DNA of 64,000 bases, from assembly GCA_021738345.1 (NCBI GenBank), contig JAIPCE010000001.1, forward strand, positions 3,596 to 67,595, given 5' to 3'. Both the position numbers and the translations under genes were made by a program. Each line of letters opens with the position of its first letter. Position 1 is the stretch's first letter. Positions 1-6,183 of this stretch are shown here, in pieces. Source of the stretch: Rhodoferax sp. Its GTDB lineage: Bacteria; Pseudomonadota; Gammaproteobacteria; Burkholderiales; Burkholderiaceae_C. The notes beneath the pieces are model-generated. The model did not search any database. It worked only from the letters and a program-made list of their open reading frames with translations, and had not been told where the DNA came from.

Positions 1-474
1 GAGGCCTACGGCGGTAGCCGTCTTGCGAGTTGGACGGTCTGGGTGGCACCAAGCACCATGCGTCCGGCAGACGTGGCCAAGCGCGTCGGGATGTCAGAGG
101 CGGAGTTGCGCAACATCAACGGCATACCCCAGCGCATGGTGATACGGGCGGGCTCCACGCTGCTGGTGCCACGCGGTGCCAGCATCATCGAAGATGTGGT
201 AAGCCGAGTGGCGGACCACGGCCAGATGTCTTTTGCACCCGAAGTGGTGCTGAAACGAACCGTGGTCAAGGCCGGCCGCAAAGACAACGTGACAAGCCTG
301 GCAGCAAGATACCGTGTCAACCCTGGTCAAGTTGCGCAATGGAACAATGTGTCTTCCACCGCAAGTTTCAGACAGGGGCAGCAGGTCGTGTTGTTTTTGC
401 CACCACAGGCCGCCGCCAAGAATCCTCCGCCAAAAACACCGATCCGACCGACGACCAAACTGGCTAAGCGCTAA
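1..474 (+). CDS. 3' part of a LysM-repeat protein, probably a membrane-bound lytic murein transglycosylase (MltD-like); 5'-truncated by the window edge
   Basis: Frame is open from base 1 (EAYGGSRLASWTVWVAPSTM...). Two LysM-like repeats (VAKRVGMSEAELRNINGI; LAARYRVNPGQVAQWNN) and a basic tail. Catalytic domain lies outside the window. Confidence 0.7.
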   Translation, partial: EAYGGSRLASWTVWVAPSTMRPADVAKRVGMSEAELRNINGIPQRMVIRAGSTLLVPRGASIIEDVVSRVADHGQMSFAPEVVLKRTVVKAGRKDNVTSLAARYRVNPGQVAQWNNVSSTASFRQGQQVVLFLPPQAAAKNPPPKTPIRPTTKLAKR

Positions 475-511
475 CAGATAATCTGATAGGTTGTTCAGTG
501 AGATAGTTCTG

Positions 512-1102
512 TTAGCGTCGATCGACCAGCGCATGGGCGATGGTGCCCAGGTCCACGTATTCGAGTTCACTCCCCGCAGGCACCCCGCGCGCCAGGCGGG
601 TGATTGTGAGACCGCGTGCACGTAAGCCTTCGCTGATGACATGCGCGGTGGCCTCGCCTTCGGCGGTGAAATTGGTTGCCAATATGACTTCGGTGACCGT
701 ACCGTCCAACGCCCGATCAAATAGTTTCTTGAGACCAATGTCATGCGGCCCTATGCCATCGAGTGGACTGAGTTTGCCCATCAATACAAAATAAAGGCCC
801 CGGTACGCCCCGGTGCGCTCCAGTGCAGCTTGGTCCGCCGGGGTCTCGACCACGCACAGCTTGCTCGGGTCGCGACGATGGTCAAGACAGGTGGCGCACA
901 TGCAGGCCTCGCTAAACGTGTGACAACGCTCACAATGCCGCACATTGCTGGCCGCCTCCTGCAAGGCTCTTGACAGCGCCACAGCACCCGCGCGGTCGTG
1001 CTGCAACAGATGAAACGCCATGCGCTGGGCCGACTTGATGCCGACGCCCGGCAAGCGGCGCAATGTCTGAATCAGGACCTCCAGCGCAGGGGTAGAAGAC
1101 AC
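512..1102 (-). CDS. recR: Recombination mediator RecR
   Basis: [11 protein letters not shown] helix-hairpin-helix, C4 zinc finger (CERC...CATC), Toprim VVET/EGEATA; follows dnaX-ybaB. Confidence 0.97.
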
Positions 1103-1184
1103 AGATTAAGGCGTCACTGCGACAGGAATGGTTGCGGTCGCACCAAGTGCCGGCGCACGCTGCTATCTACCGGAAGATACCCAC

Positions 1185-1517
1185 CTAAAACGGGAATTTC
1201 ATTCCTCCTGGCAAGCCTGGCATGCCGGCAGTGATCTTGCCCATCTTTTCAGTGGACATCTCTTCGGCCTTTCGTACCGCTGCATTGAACGCGGCGGCCA
1301 CCAGGTCTTCGAGCATGTCCTTGTCGTCCGCCAGGAGACTGGGGTCAATGGTGACGCGCTTGACATCATGCTTGCAGGTCATGGTGACCCTTACCAATCC
1401 CGCACCAGACTCGCCCGTGACCTCAATATTGCCGAGTTCATCCTGGGCTTTCTTCATGTTGTCCTGCATGGCCTGGGCCTGCTTCATCAGTCCGGCCAGT
1501 TGTCCTTTGTTGAACAT
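1185..1517 (-). CDS. ybaB: YbaB/EbfC nucleoid-associated protein
   Basis: LMKQAQAMQ...[12 protein letters not shown]...[12 protein letters not shown] signature; located between dnaX and recR. Confidence 0.95.
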
Positions 1518-1578
1518 GGGTTTCCTTCAAAATTTCAAAAACAAGTCACAGCCATTCGCAACAGACGGTCAGCCACCG

Positions 1579-3648
1579 TCAGAGTGGTCGAATGGATCCA
1601 GGCACGATTTTCGCGCCAAAGTCACGCACCATGGCCTGCACGAACGGATCACCGTAAATTATCTTTTCAGCGGCCAGTTGTTTTTCAGCGGAGGCTGCAC
1701 TGTTTCGGCGCGCCGGGCAATCGGTGACGCGGCCAACCTCCACCACCAGTTTCACCACATAGCCAGCGGCGTGGAGCGCATTCGTGAGTCGGTCTCGACT
1801 GCCACTTTGGTTCAGCGACTCACGCTCCACCCGCAAAATCCATTGGTCGGTGTCACGTGCCACCAGTTGCGACTGTAGCGCCAGCTCACGCACCATCGCG
1901 TTGATGGCTTCAGCCTGAATCAATTGTTGCACCAAGGCGTGCCAAAAATCGCCCTCTTCGCTCGGGATCAAACCCGGCGAAGTTGCTGACGAGGCGGGCT
2001 CGGATTGGGTTTGTGGCAACTGACGCACAGGAACCGACACCAAACGGGTGGCAACCCGCAGTGGCTCGACCTGCTCCAAAGCGTCCACCGTCTCCAAATT
2101 ATCAGCCTCTGGTTTGCGACCCAGATTGCGCACAGGCACGCTCACACCCATAGGAACTGCAGACCGTTGCATCGACTCCGCTTGGGCAAGCGCCGCTGCC
2201 GGTACGTGCTGAGGTAGTGGCGCAGGTGGCAACCCGGCGGGCGAAACCGTCAGGACACTCGGCGCATCTTCCCTGGGCACAACAGCACTGGGTTGGGCTG
2301 CGGCCACGATGTCAGGCAGTTGAGGGTGCACAGCCTCTGACTCGATTACAGCCAATTTCGCACGCACAGCTGGGGCCACAGGCGCCGCATCGGTCGGCCG
2401 TTCGCCCAACGGGGGCAGCCCTACCACTGCGGCAGTCGGGCTGCCCGTGGCACTCGCCGGCCGTGTCAATGGCCGCTCAGTCGCTGGAAAGCCTGGAGTT
2501 TTTTTTTCCGCCAGTGCCGTTTCGGCAGGGGGTTTGAAAGCCAGCAAGCGCAACAGCACCATGGTGAGCGCCGCATATTCGTCCGGTGCCAGCCCCAGGT
2601 CGCCGCGACCATGCAGGCAGATGCTGTACAGCAACTGTGTCTCGTCTGCAGGCATCAGGGTGGCCAAGCGCGCTGTGTCGGCGGCTTCGGGGTCGCTGTC
2701 GTCATCGGTCGCGCCGGCCATGCCGCCGGCGGATCGCGCGAGCGTCTGCAGCACCGCCATGCGTTGCAGCACCGTCGACATTTCTTCCAGGGTCGATGCC
2801 GCGCTCAGACCGTTCAGACGCAGCGCCTCAGAGGTCTCGACCACGGTTTTGCCATCACCCGTCGCCAAGGCCTCAATCAGACGAAATACATAGGATCGGT
2901 CGACGCTGCCCAGCATCTGGCGCACGCTCGCCTCCTGTAATAGGCCTGACCCGAAGGCAATGGCCTGGTCAGTCAGGCTCAGGGCATCGCGCATCGACCC
3001 CCGGGCTGCGCGCGCCAGCAACCGCAGGGCTTGCACCTCGGCGCTTACCTGCTCCACCGCCAGCACCTGGGTCAAGTGCTCACGAATGGTCTCGGGGGCC
3101 ATCGGGCGAAGGTTGAATTGCAGGCAGCGCGAAAGCACCGTAACCGGCACCTTCTGCGGATCGGTCGTGGCCAATACGAACTTGAGATACTCGGGCGGCT
3201 CTTCGAGCGTCTTCAACATGGCATTAAACGCCGTCGTCGTGAGCATGTGCACTTCGTCAATCATGAACACCTTGAAGCGTCCTTGCACCGGCTTGTAGAC
3301 CGCCTGCTCCAGCAGCGACTGGACTTCGTCGACCCCGCGATTCGAGGCGGCGTCAAGCTCGGTGTAGTCAACAAAGCGGCCGCTGTCAATATCCGTGCAA
3401 GCGGCACAGACGCCACACGGGTGGGCGGTGATTCCACCCTGCCCGTCCGTTCCCTGGCAATTCAGGGATTTGGCCAAAATGCGTGATACCGTCGTCTTGC
3501 CGACCCCGCGCGTGCCGGTAAACAAATACGCGTGGTGAAGGCGCTGTGTGGTCAGCGCATTGGTGAGCGCCTGCACCACATGGTCCTGCCCCACCATTTC
3601 GGTGAAGTTGCGCGGACGGTATTTGCGGGCGAGCACAAGGTATGACAT
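1579..3648 (-). CDS. dnaX: DNA polymerase III subunit gamma/tau
   Basis: LARKYRP, Walker A GTRGVGKTT, CGVCAAC zinc site, DEVH, SRC motif, Pro/Ala-rich linker, C-terminal tau domain. Confidence 0.98.
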   Translation of the reverse strand: MSYLVLARKYRPRNFTEMVGQDHVVQALTNALTTQRLHHAYLFTGTRGVGKTTVSRILAKSLNCQGTDGQGGITAHPCGVCAACTDIDSGRFVDYTELDAASNRGVDEVQSLLEQAVYKPVQGRFKVFMIDEVHMLTTTAFNAMLKTLEEPPEYLKFVLATTDPQKVPVTVLSRCLQFNLRPMAPETIREHLTQVLAVEQVSAEVQALRLLARAARGSMRDALSLTDQAIAFGSGLLQEASVRQMLGSVDRSYVFRLIEALATGDGKTVVETSEALRLNGLSAASTLEEMSTVLQRMAVLQTLARSAGGMAGATDDDSDPEAADTARLATLMPADETQLLYSICLHGRGDLGLAPDEYAALTMVLLRLLAFKPPAETALAEKKTPGFPATERPLTRPASATGSPTAAVVGLPPLGERPTDAAPVAPAVRAKLAVIESEAVHPQLPDIVAAAQPSAVVPREDAPSVLTVSPAGLPPAPLPQHVPAAALAQAESMQRSAVPMGVSVPVRNLGRKPEADNLETVDALEQVEPLRVATRLVSVPVRQLPQTQSEPASSATSPGLIPSEEGDFWHALVQQLIQAEAINAMVRELALQSQLVARDTDQWILRVERESLNQSGSRDRLTNALHAAGYVVKLVVEVGRVTDCPARRNSAASAEKQLAAEKIIYGDPFVQAMVRDFGAKIVPGSIRPL
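2499..2507 (-). other. A9 slippery run in dnaX (candidate recoding site)
   Basis: Minus strand reads GCG GAA AAA AAA ACT at codons 380-384; both shifted frames stop within 11 codons. Confidence 0.6.
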
Positions 3649-3654
3649 GAAGGG

Positions 3655-3660
3655 ATTCTA
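3655..3660 (-). promoter_or_regulatory. Candidate -10 box TAGAAT 6 nt before the dnaX ATG
   Basis: Minus strand TAGAAT-CCCTTC-ATG; no Shine-Dalgarno; no well-spaced -35. Confidence 0.5.
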
Positions 3661-3736
3661 AGGCGTGGCCTTGCGCAGCAAGCGGCCAACGCCATATAGT
3701 GCGGATTACACTACTTCGCGGCCCTCGGAGGACTTT

Positions 3737-5110
3737 ATGCACACCATCCGCCAGCCTGCCGTCGCAGGCACGTTTTATACCGGGCAGGCACACGCCCTGT
3801 CGCAACAGGTGAAGTCGATGCTGGCTTCAACCACCGTGGGCCAGACGGCCGCCGCCGTTCCCAAGGCACTGATTGTGCCGCATGCGGGCTATATCTATTC
3901 GGGCACCACGGCAGCCTTGGCCTATCGGCGGCTGTTGCCGGTACAAGCCACCATCCGACGGGTCGTCTTGCTCGGTCCGGCGCACCGGGTGGCCGTGCGG
4001 GGGCTGGCGCTTGCCGGGGCAGATTACTTTGCCACTCCGCTGGGCACGGTCGAGATTGACCGTGATGCAGTCGCCAAAATTGCCACGCTGCCCCAGGTCG
4101 TCGTCAGTCCTGCGGTCCACGCCCAGGAGCACTCGCTCGAAGTCCAGTTGCCCTTTTTGCAAACCGCGTTAAGAGACTTCAAGCTGGTGCCGCTGGTGGT
4201 CGGTGACGCCACACCGTCCGAGGTCGCACAGGTGCTTGAGACCTTATGGGGCGGCAATGAGACGCTGGTCGTCATCAGCTCAGACCTGTCGCACTATTTG
4301 CCCTACGCTGCTGCCCAGGCACAGGACCAGCAAACGGTTCAGACCATTGCCGAACTTAAACCCACGATTACGCACCACCAGGCCTGTGGTGGCACGCCCG
4401 TCAACGGGCTCTTGCTGGCCGCCAGGCAGCACGGCCTGCAAGCTGAGTTACTAGGCCTGTGCAACTCTGGCGACACAGCGGGCGACAAGCAGCGGGTTGT
4501 CGGATATGCCTCCTTTGCCTTTGTGACCTGCGCAGTGCGTCGAGCGGACACCCCATCAGACGCAGAAGACGGCCAGCTCCTGCTGCCGATTGCCCGCGCT
4601 GCCATCTCGACCGCCCTGGGTCGCCAGACGGCTGCGCCTGAAAGCGCGCCGTGGTTGCAGGACCGGGGTGCCTGTTTCGTCACCTTGACCCAACAAGGAC
4701 AACTGCGCGGTTGCATCGGCTCACTGGAGGCGCGCCGTACTTGGCTGCATGATGTGAAATCCAACGCCGTGGCAGCCGCCCTGCAAGACCCCCGCTTTAC
4801 GCCCTTGACGGCTGCCGAACTCGAGACCACCGACATTGAGGTGTCCTTGCTGTCCGCCACCCAAGCCATGCAGTTTGAGTCGGAAGCCCATGCGCTGGCG
4901 CAGCTTCGCCCCGGCATCGACGGCGTGATTTTTGAATATGGGCGCCATCGCAGTACCTTTTTGCCCCAGGTCTGGGAACAATTGCCTGCCGCCGTCCACT
5001 TCATGGCCCACCTCAAACGCAAGGCCGGCTTGTCGCCCGACTTTTGGCACGCCGATGTTCGACTCCACCGCTACACGGTGCGCAAATGGAAGGAACAGGA
5101 GGGACCATGA
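3737..5110 (+). CDS. amrB: Fused AmmeMemoRadiSam protein B (MEMO1-like) and protein A (AMMECR1-like)
   Basis: GGAGG RBS before ATG 3737. MEMO motifs PHAGYIYSG, EHSLEVQLPFLQ, SSDLSHY, ACGG; then AMMECR1 motifs ACFVTL, LRGCIG, TFLPQV in the same frame. Confidence 0.9.
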   Translation: MHTIRQPAVAGTFYTGQAHALSQQVKSMLASTTVGQTAAAVPKALIVPHAGYIYSGTTAALAYRRLLPVQATIRRVVLLGPAHRVAVRGLALAGADYFATPLGTVEIDRDAVAKIATLPQVVVSPAVHAQEHSLEVQLPFLQTALRDFKLVPLVVGDATPSEVAQVLETLWGGNETLVVISSDLSHYLPYAAAQAQDQQTVQTIAELKPTITHHQACGGTPVNGLLLAARQHGLQAELLGLCNSGDTAGDKQRVVGYASFAFVTCAVRRADTPSDAEDGQLLLPIARAAISTALGRQTAAPESAPWLQDRGACFVTLTQQGQLRGCIGSLEARRTWLHDVKSNAVAAALQDPRFTPLTAAELETTDIEVSLLSATQAMQFESEAHALAQLRPGIDGVIFEYGRHRSTFLPQVWEQLPAAVHFMAHLKRKAGLSPDFWHADVRLHRYTVRKWKEQEGP

Positions 5111-6183
5111 CGCAGGAATCAAGCTACCCCGCGCGCTACTGGCACGCCAACCCCGACGGTCGAATACAGTGCGACCTGTGCCCACGCGACTGCAAACTGC
5201 ACGACGGCCAGCGCGGCGCCTGCTTTGTGCGGGCGCGCCAGGGCAATCAGATGATTCTGACCACCTACGGACGGTCCTCGGGCTTTTGTATCGACCCGAT
5301 CGAAAAAAAGCCCCTGAACCATTTTTACCCGGGCAGCAGTGTGCTGTCATTTGGCACGGCCGGATGCAATCTGACCTGCAAGTTCTGCCAGAACTGGGAC
5401 ATCAGCAAGTCGCGTGACATGGACCGCCTGATGGAACGTGCAGCGCCCGAGACGATTGCGCTCGAAGCCCTTAAATATGGCTGCAAGAGCGTGGCCTTTA
5501 CCTACAACGACCCGGTCATTTTTGCCGAATACGCCATGGATGTCGCCGACGCCTGCCACGCCCAAGGGGTGCAGACGGTCGCCGTCACGGCGGGCTACAT
5601 GCACGCCGCCGCCCGGCGCGACTTCTACGCCAAAATCGACGCCGCCAACGTCGACCTGAAGGCGTTTACCGACGACTTTTACTTCAAGCTCACCGGCTCA
5701 CATCTGCAACCAGTGCTCGATACCCTGGTTTATCTCAAGCATGAAACCCAGGTGTGGCTGGAGATCACCACCCTGTTGATTCCTGGGCACAACGACTCTG
5801 ACACGGAGATCACTGCGCTGTGTCGTTGGGTTCGGCAGGCGCTCGGGCCGGACGTGCCGCTGCACTTTTCCGCCTTCCATCCCGACCACAAGATGCCTGA
5901 CATTCCCGCGACGCCCCAGGCTACGCTGGTGCGGGCGCGCACGATTGGGCTACAGGAAGGCCTGCATTTTGTCTACACCGGCAATGTGCACCACGCAGAG
6001 GGCGGCACCACGGTTTGCCCGCATTGCCAGGCCAGCCTCGTCGTGCGGGACTGGTACCAGATCCGGCAGTATCGGATATCCGAGACTGGCACTTGCCCGG
6101 ACTGTAGCAAGCCAATCGCAGGCCGGTTTGATGCCCAATGCGGTAACTTTGGCCGCAAACGTATTCCGATCCGAATGCATTGA
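5107..6183 (+). CDS. amrS: AmmeMemoRadiSam radical SAM enzyme
   Basis: CNLTCKFC (CxxxCxxC), N-terminal CDLCPRDC, PIEKKPLNHFYPG, C-terminal CPHC/CPDC; ATGA overlap with the upstream gene. Confidence 0.93.
   Translation: MTQESSYPARYWHANPDGRIQCDLCPRDCKLHDGQRGACFVRARQGNQMILTTYGRSSGFCIDPIEKKPLNHFYPGSSVLSFGTAGCNLTCKFCQNWDISKSRDMDRLMERAAPETIALEALKYGCKSVAFTYNDPVIFAEYAMDVADACHAQGVQTVAVTAGYMHAAARRDFYAKIDAANVDLKAFTDDFYFKLTGSHLQPVLDTLVYLKHETQVWLEITTLLIPGHNDSDTEITALCRWVRQALGPDVPLHFSAFHPDHKMPDIPATPQATLVRARTIGLQEGLHFVYTGNVHHAEGGTTVCPHCQASLVVRDWYQIRQYRISETGTCPDCSKPIAGRFDAQCGNFGRKRIPIRMH

What the first reader, a model, noticed from the sequence alone, without database searches (positions are those of the whole stretch)
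2466..2511. A9 slippery run in dnaX positioned to make a gamma-like short product
Seen: the minus strand reads GCG GAA AAA AAA ACT, with 9 consecutive A at 2507-2499 (codons E381-K383), just past the clamp-loader domains and at the start of the Pro/Ala linker. One extra A (or a -1 shift) gives EKKNSRLSSD-stop (TGA 2479-2477, 390 aa). One fewer A gives EKKLQAFQRLSGH-stop (TGA 2468-2466, 393 aa). Known: E. coli makes gamma by -1 ribosomal frameshifting at A AAA AAG, and Thermus thermophilus by transcriptional slippage on an A9 run. Inference: this organism makes gamma by one of these routes. No upstream SD-like stimulator is visible, which would fit transcriptional slippage better.
Basis: partly seen in the sequence, partly recalled or inferred. 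Interest (0 to 1): 0.62.

Follow-up and report, generated by a model that had tools for sequence, protein, structure and literature searches.

The report
Conserved A9 slippage site in dnaX
The run of nine A's in this Rhodoferax clamp-loader gene dnaX is kept base for base across most Comamonadaceae, and it most likely lets RNA polymerase slip so that one gene yields both the long (tau) and a short (gamma-like) protein, as already shown in Thermus.

Summary
dnaX (window 1579-3648, minus strand, 689 aa) carries exactly nine A's at 2507-2499, nine codons after clamp-loader domain III. The shifted frames stop at 2479-2477 and 2468-2466.

The run is under strong selection.
- 171 distinct Comamonadaceae dnaX genes have exactly A9 in the same codon phase.
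- Their Glu and Lys third positions are frozen, while 21 other invariant Lys/Glu columns mix both codons.
- The Ser after the run is always AGY.
- The next Leu is only CTG, CTA or TTA, the codons that create a +1-frame stop.
- Both shifted frames close within 3 codons in 46% of genes, against 1.1% of other positions.
- There is no Shine-Dalgarno-like (SD-like) element and no flanking RNA structure.

In a one-genome-per-genus sample, every signal lies in one well-supported clade: 75 A9-like, 3 A_AAA_AAG and 5 none.

The Polaromonas lineage replaced A9 with the E. coli-type A_AAA_AAG heptamer. It has an upstream GGGAG and a stop only in the -1 frame. This contrast favours transcriptional slippage at A9.

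I read this as a new lineage for a known mechanism, of moderate interest.

The parts
1579..3648 (-). dnaX, a single open frame of 689 aa encoding full-length tau
   Evidence: Pfam DNA_pol3_delta2, DNAX_ATPase_lid, DNA_pol3_gamma3, DNA_pol3_tau_5; E. coli gamma/tau structures at E about 1e-108
2533..3648 (-). Codons 1-372: clamp-loader domains I-III, shared by tau and the predicted gamma-like product
   Evidence: Pfam domain III ends at residue 372; residues 1-374 align to E. coli gamma 1-362
2499..2507 (-). A9 run (G AAA AAA AAA in codons GAA AAA AAA ACT), the proposed slippage site
   Evidence: Exactly A9 in the same phase in 30/30 same-genus genes, 76/78 named Comamonadaceae and 171 distinct genes in all. 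Synonymous sites are frozen
2477..2479 (-). TGA in the -1 frame, reached by A10 transcripts or a -1 ribosomal shift; product 390 aa ending EKKNSRLSSD
   Evidence: in the family the -1 frame stop comes a median of 4 codons after the run
2466..2468 (-). TGA in the +1 frame, reached by A8 or A11 transcripts; products of 393 or 394 aa ending LQAFQRLSGH
   Evidence: In 89/103 relatives the +1 frame stop comes one codon after the run. It is maintained by Leu codon choice: only CTG, CTA or TTA
1582..2498 (-). Tau-only part: Pro/Ala-rich linker plus C-terminal domain V (codons 563-685 = 1594-1962), absent from the short product
   Evidence: Pfam DNA_pol3_tau_5 at residues 563-685; the linker does not align between relatives
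1185..1517 (-). ybaB, downstream operon partner (context)
   Evidence: Pfam YbaB_DNA_bd, E 5.8e-35
512..1102 (-). recR, downstream operon partner (context)
   Evidence: Pfam RecR_HhH, Toprim_4, RecR_C

Best explanation
The A9 run is a programmed recoding signal of the Thermus thermophilus dnaX type. RNA polymerase transcribing the T9 template slips in a fraction of rounds and makes mRNAs with A10, A11 or A8. Ordinary translation of these mRNAs ends 7-10 codons after the run in this organism, and 1-4 codons after it in most relatives. The result is a gamma-like DnaX of about 390-394 aa. It keeps clamp-loader domains I-III but lacks the helicase- and polymerase-binding part of tau. A9 and A12 transcripts give tau (689 or 690 aa). 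Shown here: the anatomy, and strong selection on the run and on both out-of-frame stops across Comamonadaceae. Inferred: that slippage happens, that it happens at the RNA level, and that the short protein is made and used.
For: (1) The run is exactly A9 and in the same phase in 103/105 distinct Comamonadaceae genes, and in 171 distinct genes once the genus sample is added. The flanks decay to random within about 6 nt upstream and 15 nt downstream.
(2) Synonymous sites are frozen: GAA 100/100, AAA 104/104 and AAA 103/104. At 21 other invariant Lys/Glu columns of the same genes both codons are mixed.
(3) The two A's outside the ribosomal heptamer are also fixed. The first codon is GAA or CAA. 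The last is ACN or AGY, and never TCN for Ser, although TCN makes up 64% of Ser codons elsewhere in these genes.
(4) Both shifted frames close fast. Both are closed within 3 codons in 46% of genes against 1.1% of other positions, and within 10 codons in 95% against 8.5%.
(5) The +1-frame stop is itself selected. The Leu codon after the run is CTG 76%, CTA 23% (1.5% elsewhere) and TTA 1 case. CTC, CTT and TTG occur 0/146 times against 42% elsewhere. A purely -1 ribosomal shift would not need this stop.
(6) An SD-like element is present in only 4/103 A9 genes, and there is no flanking structure (mean z about -0.5).
(7) Natural contrast: Polaromonas (30/30) has an in-phase A_AAA_AAG at the same two Lys codons. 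It has GGGAG 15 nt upstream (28/30) and a -1 stop after 2-5 codons (30/30). Its +1 frame is unconstrained, with a median of 42.5 codons.
(8) The site lies 9 codons after domain III.
(9) Published: A9/T9 runs give efficient RNA polymerase slippage in vivo. Thermus dnaX uses an A9 with nearby stops in both non-zero frames to make about 50% gamma (PMC1088944; PMC5009743).
Against: The run also contains an in-phase A_AAA_AAA heptamer, so some -1 ribosomal frameshifting cannot be excluded. In this organism the out-of-frame stops are 7 and 10 codons away, looser than in most relatives and only about the 8th percentile of in-gene positions. Slippage efficiency of Comamonadaceae RNA polymerase on A9 is unknown. 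Sequences in the family are phylogenetically related, so the counts are not independent events.
Confidence: 0.72

Rival explanations
1. Gamma is made mainly by -1 ribosomal frameshifting on the in-phase heptamer A_AAA_AAA, as in E. coli dnaX, from an unedited mRNA.
For: The heptamer is in the correct phase and a -1 frame stop follows after 7 codons. The -1 frame stop is near in all relatives. A related clade uses the classical A_AAA_AAG at the same codons.
Against: There is no SD-like element (4/103) and no downstream structure. The A's outside the heptamer are fixed. The +1-frame stop is selected through Leu codon choice, which a -1 shift does not need. A_AAA_AAA is reported to be much less shift-prone than A_AAA_AAG in E. 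coli (PMC5009743). Rhodoferax relatives carry both tRNA-Lys(UUU) and tRNA-Lys(CUU).
Confidence: 0.15
2. The run only encodes a conserved Glu-Lys-Lys-Thr/Ser-Leu peptide motif at the start of the linker, and no recoding occurs.
For: The peptide (E/Q)KK(T/S)L is conserved in an otherwise variable linker.
Against: Selection is on nucleotides, not residues. Third positions are frozen while control columns vary. E/Q and T/S exchanges keep the A's. The rare CTA Leu codon is enriched 15-fold and common Leu codons are absent. Runs of 9 or more are otherwise nearly absent from genes of this genome.
Confidence: 0.05
3. The run is a DNA-level mutational switch (replication slippage or phase variation), or an assembly artefact.
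For: Two single-contig assemblies of related genera show A7 with a broken frame (L224, L228).
Against: The run is exactly A9 in 171 independent assemblies. Tau is essential, so heritable frame loss would be lethal (established knowledge). The two A7 cases are more simply homopolymer under-calls.
Confidence: 0.03

Closest known systems
Thermus thermophilus dnaX: programmed transcriptional slippage at an A9 run (Larsen et al. 2000 PNAS 97:1683, as described in PMC1088944 and PMC5009743)
   Same: Single tau ORF. Exactly nine A's in the sense strand. Stops close by in both non-zero frames. The short product lacks the tau C-terminal functions. No ribosomal stimulators are needed.
   Different: The lineage is unrelated (Betaproteobacteria, family Comamonadaceae). 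The position differs: about 55% of the way through the gene, 9 codons after domain III, against about seven-eighths of the way in Thermus. The origin is therefore probably independent. Slippage is not yet shown experimentally here.
E. coli / enterobacterial dnaX: -1 ribosomal frameshift at A_AAA_AAG with an upstream SD and a downstream hairpin
   Same: The same gene and the same outcome, a gamma lacking the tau C-terminus. The A run contains an in-phase -1 heptamer.
   Different: The window gene has no SD-like element, no hairpin and no AAG. It needs nine A's and has both frames closed. The E. coli site is at codons 428-430, inside domain IV (my own knowledge). The Polaromonas lineage within the same family does resemble the E. 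coli cassette, apart from the hairpin.
Two-ORF dnaX genes with A7-A10 runs in which tau needs recoding (Antonov et al. 2013, PMC3711429)
   Same: A poly-A run at the gamma/tau boundary of dnaX, with transcriptional realignment proposed.
   Different: There the zero frame gives gamma and slippage is needed for tau. Here the zero frame gives tau.
Caulobacter crescentus DnaX: gamma made by ClpXP partial proteolysis (Vass and Chien 2013, cited in PMC5009743 and bioRxiv 10.1101/2022.11.10.516041)
   Same: Two DnaX forms from one gene.
   Different: That mechanism is post-translational and uses no slippery sequence.

Membership tests
Thermus-type dnaX programmed transcriptional slippage | Homopolymeric run of about 9 A in the sense strand inside a single tau ORF | tested here: met
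   A9 at 2507-2499 in a 689-aa ORF
Thermus-type dnaX programmed transcriptional slippage | Stop codons shortly after the run in both non-zero frames | tested here: met
   Stops 7 and 10 codons after the run in the window gene. Family medians are 4 and 1 codons. Both frames are closed within 10 codons in 95% of genes against 8.5% of background positions. The +1 stop is maintained by codon choice
Thermus-type dnaX programmed transcriptional slippage | The run is maintained by purifying selection at nucleotide level | tested here: met
   171 distinct genes with exactly A9. Synonymous positions are frozen against 21 control columns
Thermus-type dnaX programmed transcriptional slippage | The short product keeps clamp-loader domains I-III and lacks the tau-specific C-terminus | tested here: met
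   Pfam domain III ends at residue 372 and the run starts at codon 381. tau_5 is at residues 563-685. Alignment to crystallised E. coli gamma
Thermus-type dnaX programmed transcriptional slippage | mRNA population heterogeneous in A-run length while the DNA is homogeneous | not testable with these tools
Thermus-type dnaX programmed transcriptional slippage | Two DnaX proteins (tau and gamma) detectable in cells | not testable with these tools
   No proteomic data are accessible, and no paper on Comamonadaceae DnaX forms was found
E. coli-type dnaX -1 programmed ribosomal frameshift | In-phase X_XXY_YYZ heptamer (A_AAA_AAG) | tested here: inconclusive
   A_AAA_AAA is in phase, but the AAG form is absent in 103/104 genes. 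A_AAA_AAA is reported as much less shifty in E. coli
E. coli-type dnaX -1 programmed ribosomal frameshift | Upstream Shine-Dalgarno-like stimulator | tested here: not met
   None in the window gene. Present in 4/103 A9 genes against 28/30 Polaromonas heptamer genes
E. coli-type dnaX -1 programmed ribosomal frameshift | Downstream stem-loop stimulator | tested here: not met
   Downstream folds are no more stable than shuffles: window z -0.57, family mean z about -0.4
Two-ORF dnaX (tau requires recoding; Antonov 2013) | The zero frame terminates at the run and tau continues in another frame | tested here: not met
   The zero frame is open for 689 aa through domain V

The most novel reading that the evidence does not exclude
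Within one bacterial family, the same two lysine codons of dnaX carry either a transcriptional-slippage signal or a ribosomal-frameshift cassette. Most Comamonadaceae have A9 with both shifted frames closed. Polaromonas and two related genera have GGGAG-N15-A_AAA_AAG with only the -1 frame closed. This would be a natural, recent switch between two levels of recoding. It would imply that the gamma form is under continuous strong selection in this family. It would also give pairs of culturable relatives in which the role of gamma, open since 1990, and the equivalence of the two mechanisms could be tested directly.
Probability: 0.55. Interest if true: 0.6.

Novelty: new member of a known kind. 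Interest (0 to 1): 0.42.

Why it matters
Reviews state that most bacteria lack recoding signals in dnaX and may not make gamma (PMC3290774). Here a large, ecologically important family that includes culturable genera (Acidovorax, Comamonas, Variovorax, Rhodoferax, Hydrogenophaga, Limnohabitans) keeps a Thermus-like signal in about 90% of the genera of one clade. One sub-lineage exchanged it for an E. coli-like signal. This argues that a short DnaX form is selected for well beyond the three model organisms. It also provides cultured organisms in which to ask what gamma is for. In practice, genome annotation of these dnaX genes misses a second product, and A7/A8/A10 calls at this site in long-read assemblies should be treated with care.

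Tried and rejected
- **Larsen et al. 2000:** the paper (PMC26496) is not held, so its content is cited through PMC1088944 and PMC5009743.
- **Rfam scan of window 1-6000:** no family reached threshold, and there is no ffs upstream of dnaX.
- **tRNA-Lys repertoire as a discriminator:** four Rhodoferax and four of six Polaromonas genomes have a tandem tRNA-Lys(TTT) and tRNA-Lys(CTT). It therefore does not separate the A9 lineages from the heptamer lineages. In the 91%-complete window genome only tRNA-Lys(TTT) was found.
- **Flanking RNA structure:** neither upstream nor downstream folds differ from shuffles.
- **Independent origins of the heptamer cassette:** the FastTree topology suggested three separate places. 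A tree holding them together is not rejected and has the higher likelihood (AU p 0.75). The shared spacer also points to one origin.
- **Literature:** no report of Comamonadaceae dnaX recoding was found.
- **Metagenome pattern scan for A8/A10/A11 variants:** considered but not run, because record names would not tell RNA-derived from DNA-derived contigs.
- **First null for stop distances:** one search used the wrong frame offsets, and its background figures were discarded and recomputed.

Full report
**Observation**

The ORF at window 1579..3648 on the minus strand encodes a 689-aa DnaX.
- Pfam finds the AAA+ module, the lid, DnaX domain III (residues 238-372) and tau domain V (residues 563-685).
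- Residues 1-374 align to residues 1-362 of the 373-residue crystallised E. coli gamma, at E about 1e-108.
- ybaB (1185-1517) and recR (512-1102) follow on the same strand.
- The minus strand reads GCG GAA AAA AAA ACT, with nine A's at 2507-2499. These are codons E381, K382, K383 and the first base of T384.
- One extra A gives EKK-NSRLSSD-stop (TGA 2479-2477, 390 aa).
- One fewer A gives EKK-LQAFQRLSGH-stop (TGA 2468-2466, 393 aa). Two extra A's give 394 aa.

**Rarity in the genome**

The window lies in a 4.87-Mb, 346-contig, 91%-complete genome of 58% GC.
- It holds only 15 A or T runs of 9 or more.
- Four of these fall in stop-to-stop frames of at least 300 codons.
- On inspection two of the four lie outside real coding sequence.
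- That leaves dnaX and a Transposase_29 gene with an in-frame A10.

**Conservation in relatives**

- All 30 dnaX genes fetched from the same GTDB genus have exactly A9 in the same codon phase.
- Named records show that the genus is Rhodoferax.
- 76 of 78 named Comamonadaceae genes have the same A9. These include Rhodoferax, Acidovorax, Paracidovorax, Comamonas testosteroni, Curvibacter, Ramlibacter, Variovorax, Hydrogenophaga, Limnohabitans, Ottowia, Xenophilus and Hylemonella.
- Anchored on the run, the consensus is GGC(T/G)G-A9-CTCTGAAT. Conservation is lost within about 6 nt upstream and 15 nt downstream, because the linker is otherwise unalignable.

**Selection acts on nucleotides, not residues**

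- At 21 other columns of the same alignment where Lys or Glu is invariant, both synonymous codons are mixed (AAA 10-50%, GAA 13-80%).
- At the site the counts are GAA 100/100, AAA 104/104 and AAA 103/104.
- The first codon can be CAA (Gln) instead of GAA.
- The last codon is ACN (Thr) or AGY (Ser), and never TCN, although TCN makes up 64% of Ser codons in these genes.
- These first and last A's lie outside the X_XXY_YYZ heptamer that a ribosomal -1 shift would use. Nine A's are therefore being kept, not seven.

**Both shifted frames are kept closed**

- After the run, the -1 frame stops after a median of 4 codons.
- The +1 frame stops after 1 codon in 89 of 103 genes.
- Both frames are closed within 3 codons in 46% of genes, against 1.1% of other codon positions in the same genes. 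Within 10 codons the figures are 95% against 8.5%.
- The Leu codon following the run is CTG (76%), CTA (23%, against 1.5% elsewhere) or TTA (one case). CTC, CTT and TTG are never used (0 of 146, against 42% elsewhere). The next codon starts with A or G in 144 of 146 genes.
- CTG, CTA and TTA are the Leu codons that can create TGA, TAA or TAG in the +1 frame.
- A purely -1 ribosomal shift has no need for that stop. RNA polymerase slippage does need it, because it yields A10, A11 and A8 transcripts.
- In the window gene the residue is Pro, not Leu, and the stops are 7 and 10 codons away. This is looser than usual but still near.

**No ribosomal stimulators**

- A GGAG, GAGG or AGGA motif lies 6-24 nt upstream in only 4 of 103 A9 genes, and not in the window gene.
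- Upstream and downstream 45-60-nt folds are no more stable than shuffles, with mean z about -0.4 to -0.6.

**Phylogenetic extent**

I sampled one genome per genus of the GTDB family (146 genera parsed).
- The counts were A9 72, A8 1, A10 1, in-phase A_AAA_AAG 3 and none 69.
- On a tree of the N-terminal 362 residues, every signal falls in one clade. It has 83 tips including the window, and support 99.
- Inside that clade there are 75 A9-like, 3 heptamer and 5 without a signal.
- The other 63 genera of the family lack it. So do 18 of the 20 genomes taken from other Burkholderiales families; the two exceptions carry an A10 and an A8.
- The signal therefore looks like an old, single acquisition that is retained in about 90% of genera of that clade.

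**A natural contrast**

The two named exceptions are Polaromonas.
- All 30 Polaromonas species examined carry NNA AAA AAG, the E. coli dnaX heptamer, in phase at the same two Lys codons.
- They have a -1 frame stop after 2-5 codons in 30 of 30, while the +1 frame is unconstrained (median 42.5 codons).
- They have GGGAG-like sequence 15 nt upstream in 28 of 30.
- Two further genera share the same cassette and spacer.
- A tree holding all heptamer genera together is not rejected, and it has the higher likelihood (AU p 0.75). One switch is the simplest reading.
- Where the sequence looks ribosomal, it has an upstream GGGAG and a stop only in the -1 frame. Where it is A9, it has neither an SD-like element nor an open +1 frame. 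This is the main argument for assigning A9 to transcriptional slippage.

**Evidence that did not discriminate**

- Four Rhodoferax genomes and four of six Polaromonas genomes carry a tandem tRNA-Lys(TTT) and tRNA-Lys(CTT).
- The idea that two Lys tRNAs disfavour A_AAA_AAG frameshifting (PMC5009743) therefore does not separate the two groups.

**Comparison with what is known**

- Thermus thermophilus dnaX has an A9 run and nearby stops in both non-zero frames. It makes about 50% gamma by RNA polymerase slippage, and A9/T9 runs slip efficiently in vivo (PMC1088944; PMC5009743).
- E. coli and its relatives, Neisseria and Vibrio use A_AAA_AAG with an SD and a hairpin. Some Chlorobi and others have two-ORF genes in which tau needs slippage (PMC3711429).
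- Caulobacter uses proteolysis.
- A review states that most other bacteria keep no such signatures and may not make gamma (PMC3290774).
- I found no paper on Comamonadaceae dnaX recoding.
- Earlier notes of this scan report conserved A9 runs in dnaX of several other phyla, but none for this family.
- This case is therefore a new lineage for a known mechanism. It differs in position: about 55% of the way through the gene, directly after domain III, which gives a near-minimal gamma. It also differs in having the intra-family switch.

**Limits**

- That slippage occurs, its level and its direction are inferences.
- A contribution from -1 ribosomal frameshifting on A_AAA_AAA cannot be excluded.
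- Counts across relatives are not independent events. The control columns and codon-choice contrasts come from the same alignments and share the same phylogeny, which limits this problem.

**Verdict**

- I put about 0.9 on the run being a selected recoding signal that gives a gamma-like product.
- I put about 0.72 on the full statement, including the transcriptional mechanism.

Noticed in passing
L112, L119, L132-L161 (Polaromonas dnaX); L220, L283, L308: At the same two Lys codons, Polaromonas (30/30 species) and two related genera carry an in-phase A_AAA_AAG instead of A9. They have GGGAG about 15 nt upstream and a -1-frame TGA 2-5 codons later, while the +1 frame is open for a median of 42.5 codons. 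No downstream hairpin was detected. This looks like a switch from a transcriptional to a ribosomal recoding signal within one family.
   Followed up: yes
L224 (G191) and L228 (G254), dnaX about nt 1111-1155: Two single-contig assemblies of genera inside the A9 clade show A7. The zero frame then ends at 387 or 377 aa, and an intact tau part (650 or 622 aa in total) continues in the +1 frame. This is either a homopolymer under-call or a true layout in which tau needs slippage.
   Followed up: partly
own genome contig C88, A10 at nt 481 of a 784-codon frame (outside the window): A Transposase_29 family gene has an in-frame A10 between its N-terminal HTH-like part and the catalytic domain. Stops follow 20 and 8 codons later in the shifted frames. 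It is a candidate slippage site giving a truncated DNA-binding form, as known for some IS elements.
   Followed up: partly
L042 (G051, another Burkholderiales family) dnaX nt 1279; L045 (G055) nt 1157: Outside the family, one genome has an in-frame A10 (EKKKL) with both shifted frames closing within 1-8 codons. Another has an A8. These suggest independent origins of poly-A signals in dnaX within the order.
   Followed up: no
window 3649-3800 and 3665-5110 (+): No SRP RNA (ffs) or other Rfam family lies upstream of dnaX, unlike the common ffs-dnaX-ybaB-recR layout. The divergent upstream gene encodes a Memo-AMMECR1 fusion protein of 481 aa.
   Followed up: partly
own genome contig C268:39702-39777; L162-L178: Relatives have tRNA-Lys(TTT) immediately followed by tRNA-Lys(CTT). 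In the window's genome tRNA-Lys(TTT) is followed by a terminator-like hairpin, and no tRNA-Lys(CTT) was found. Only 33 tRNAs were detected in this 91%-complete assembly.
   Followed up: partly
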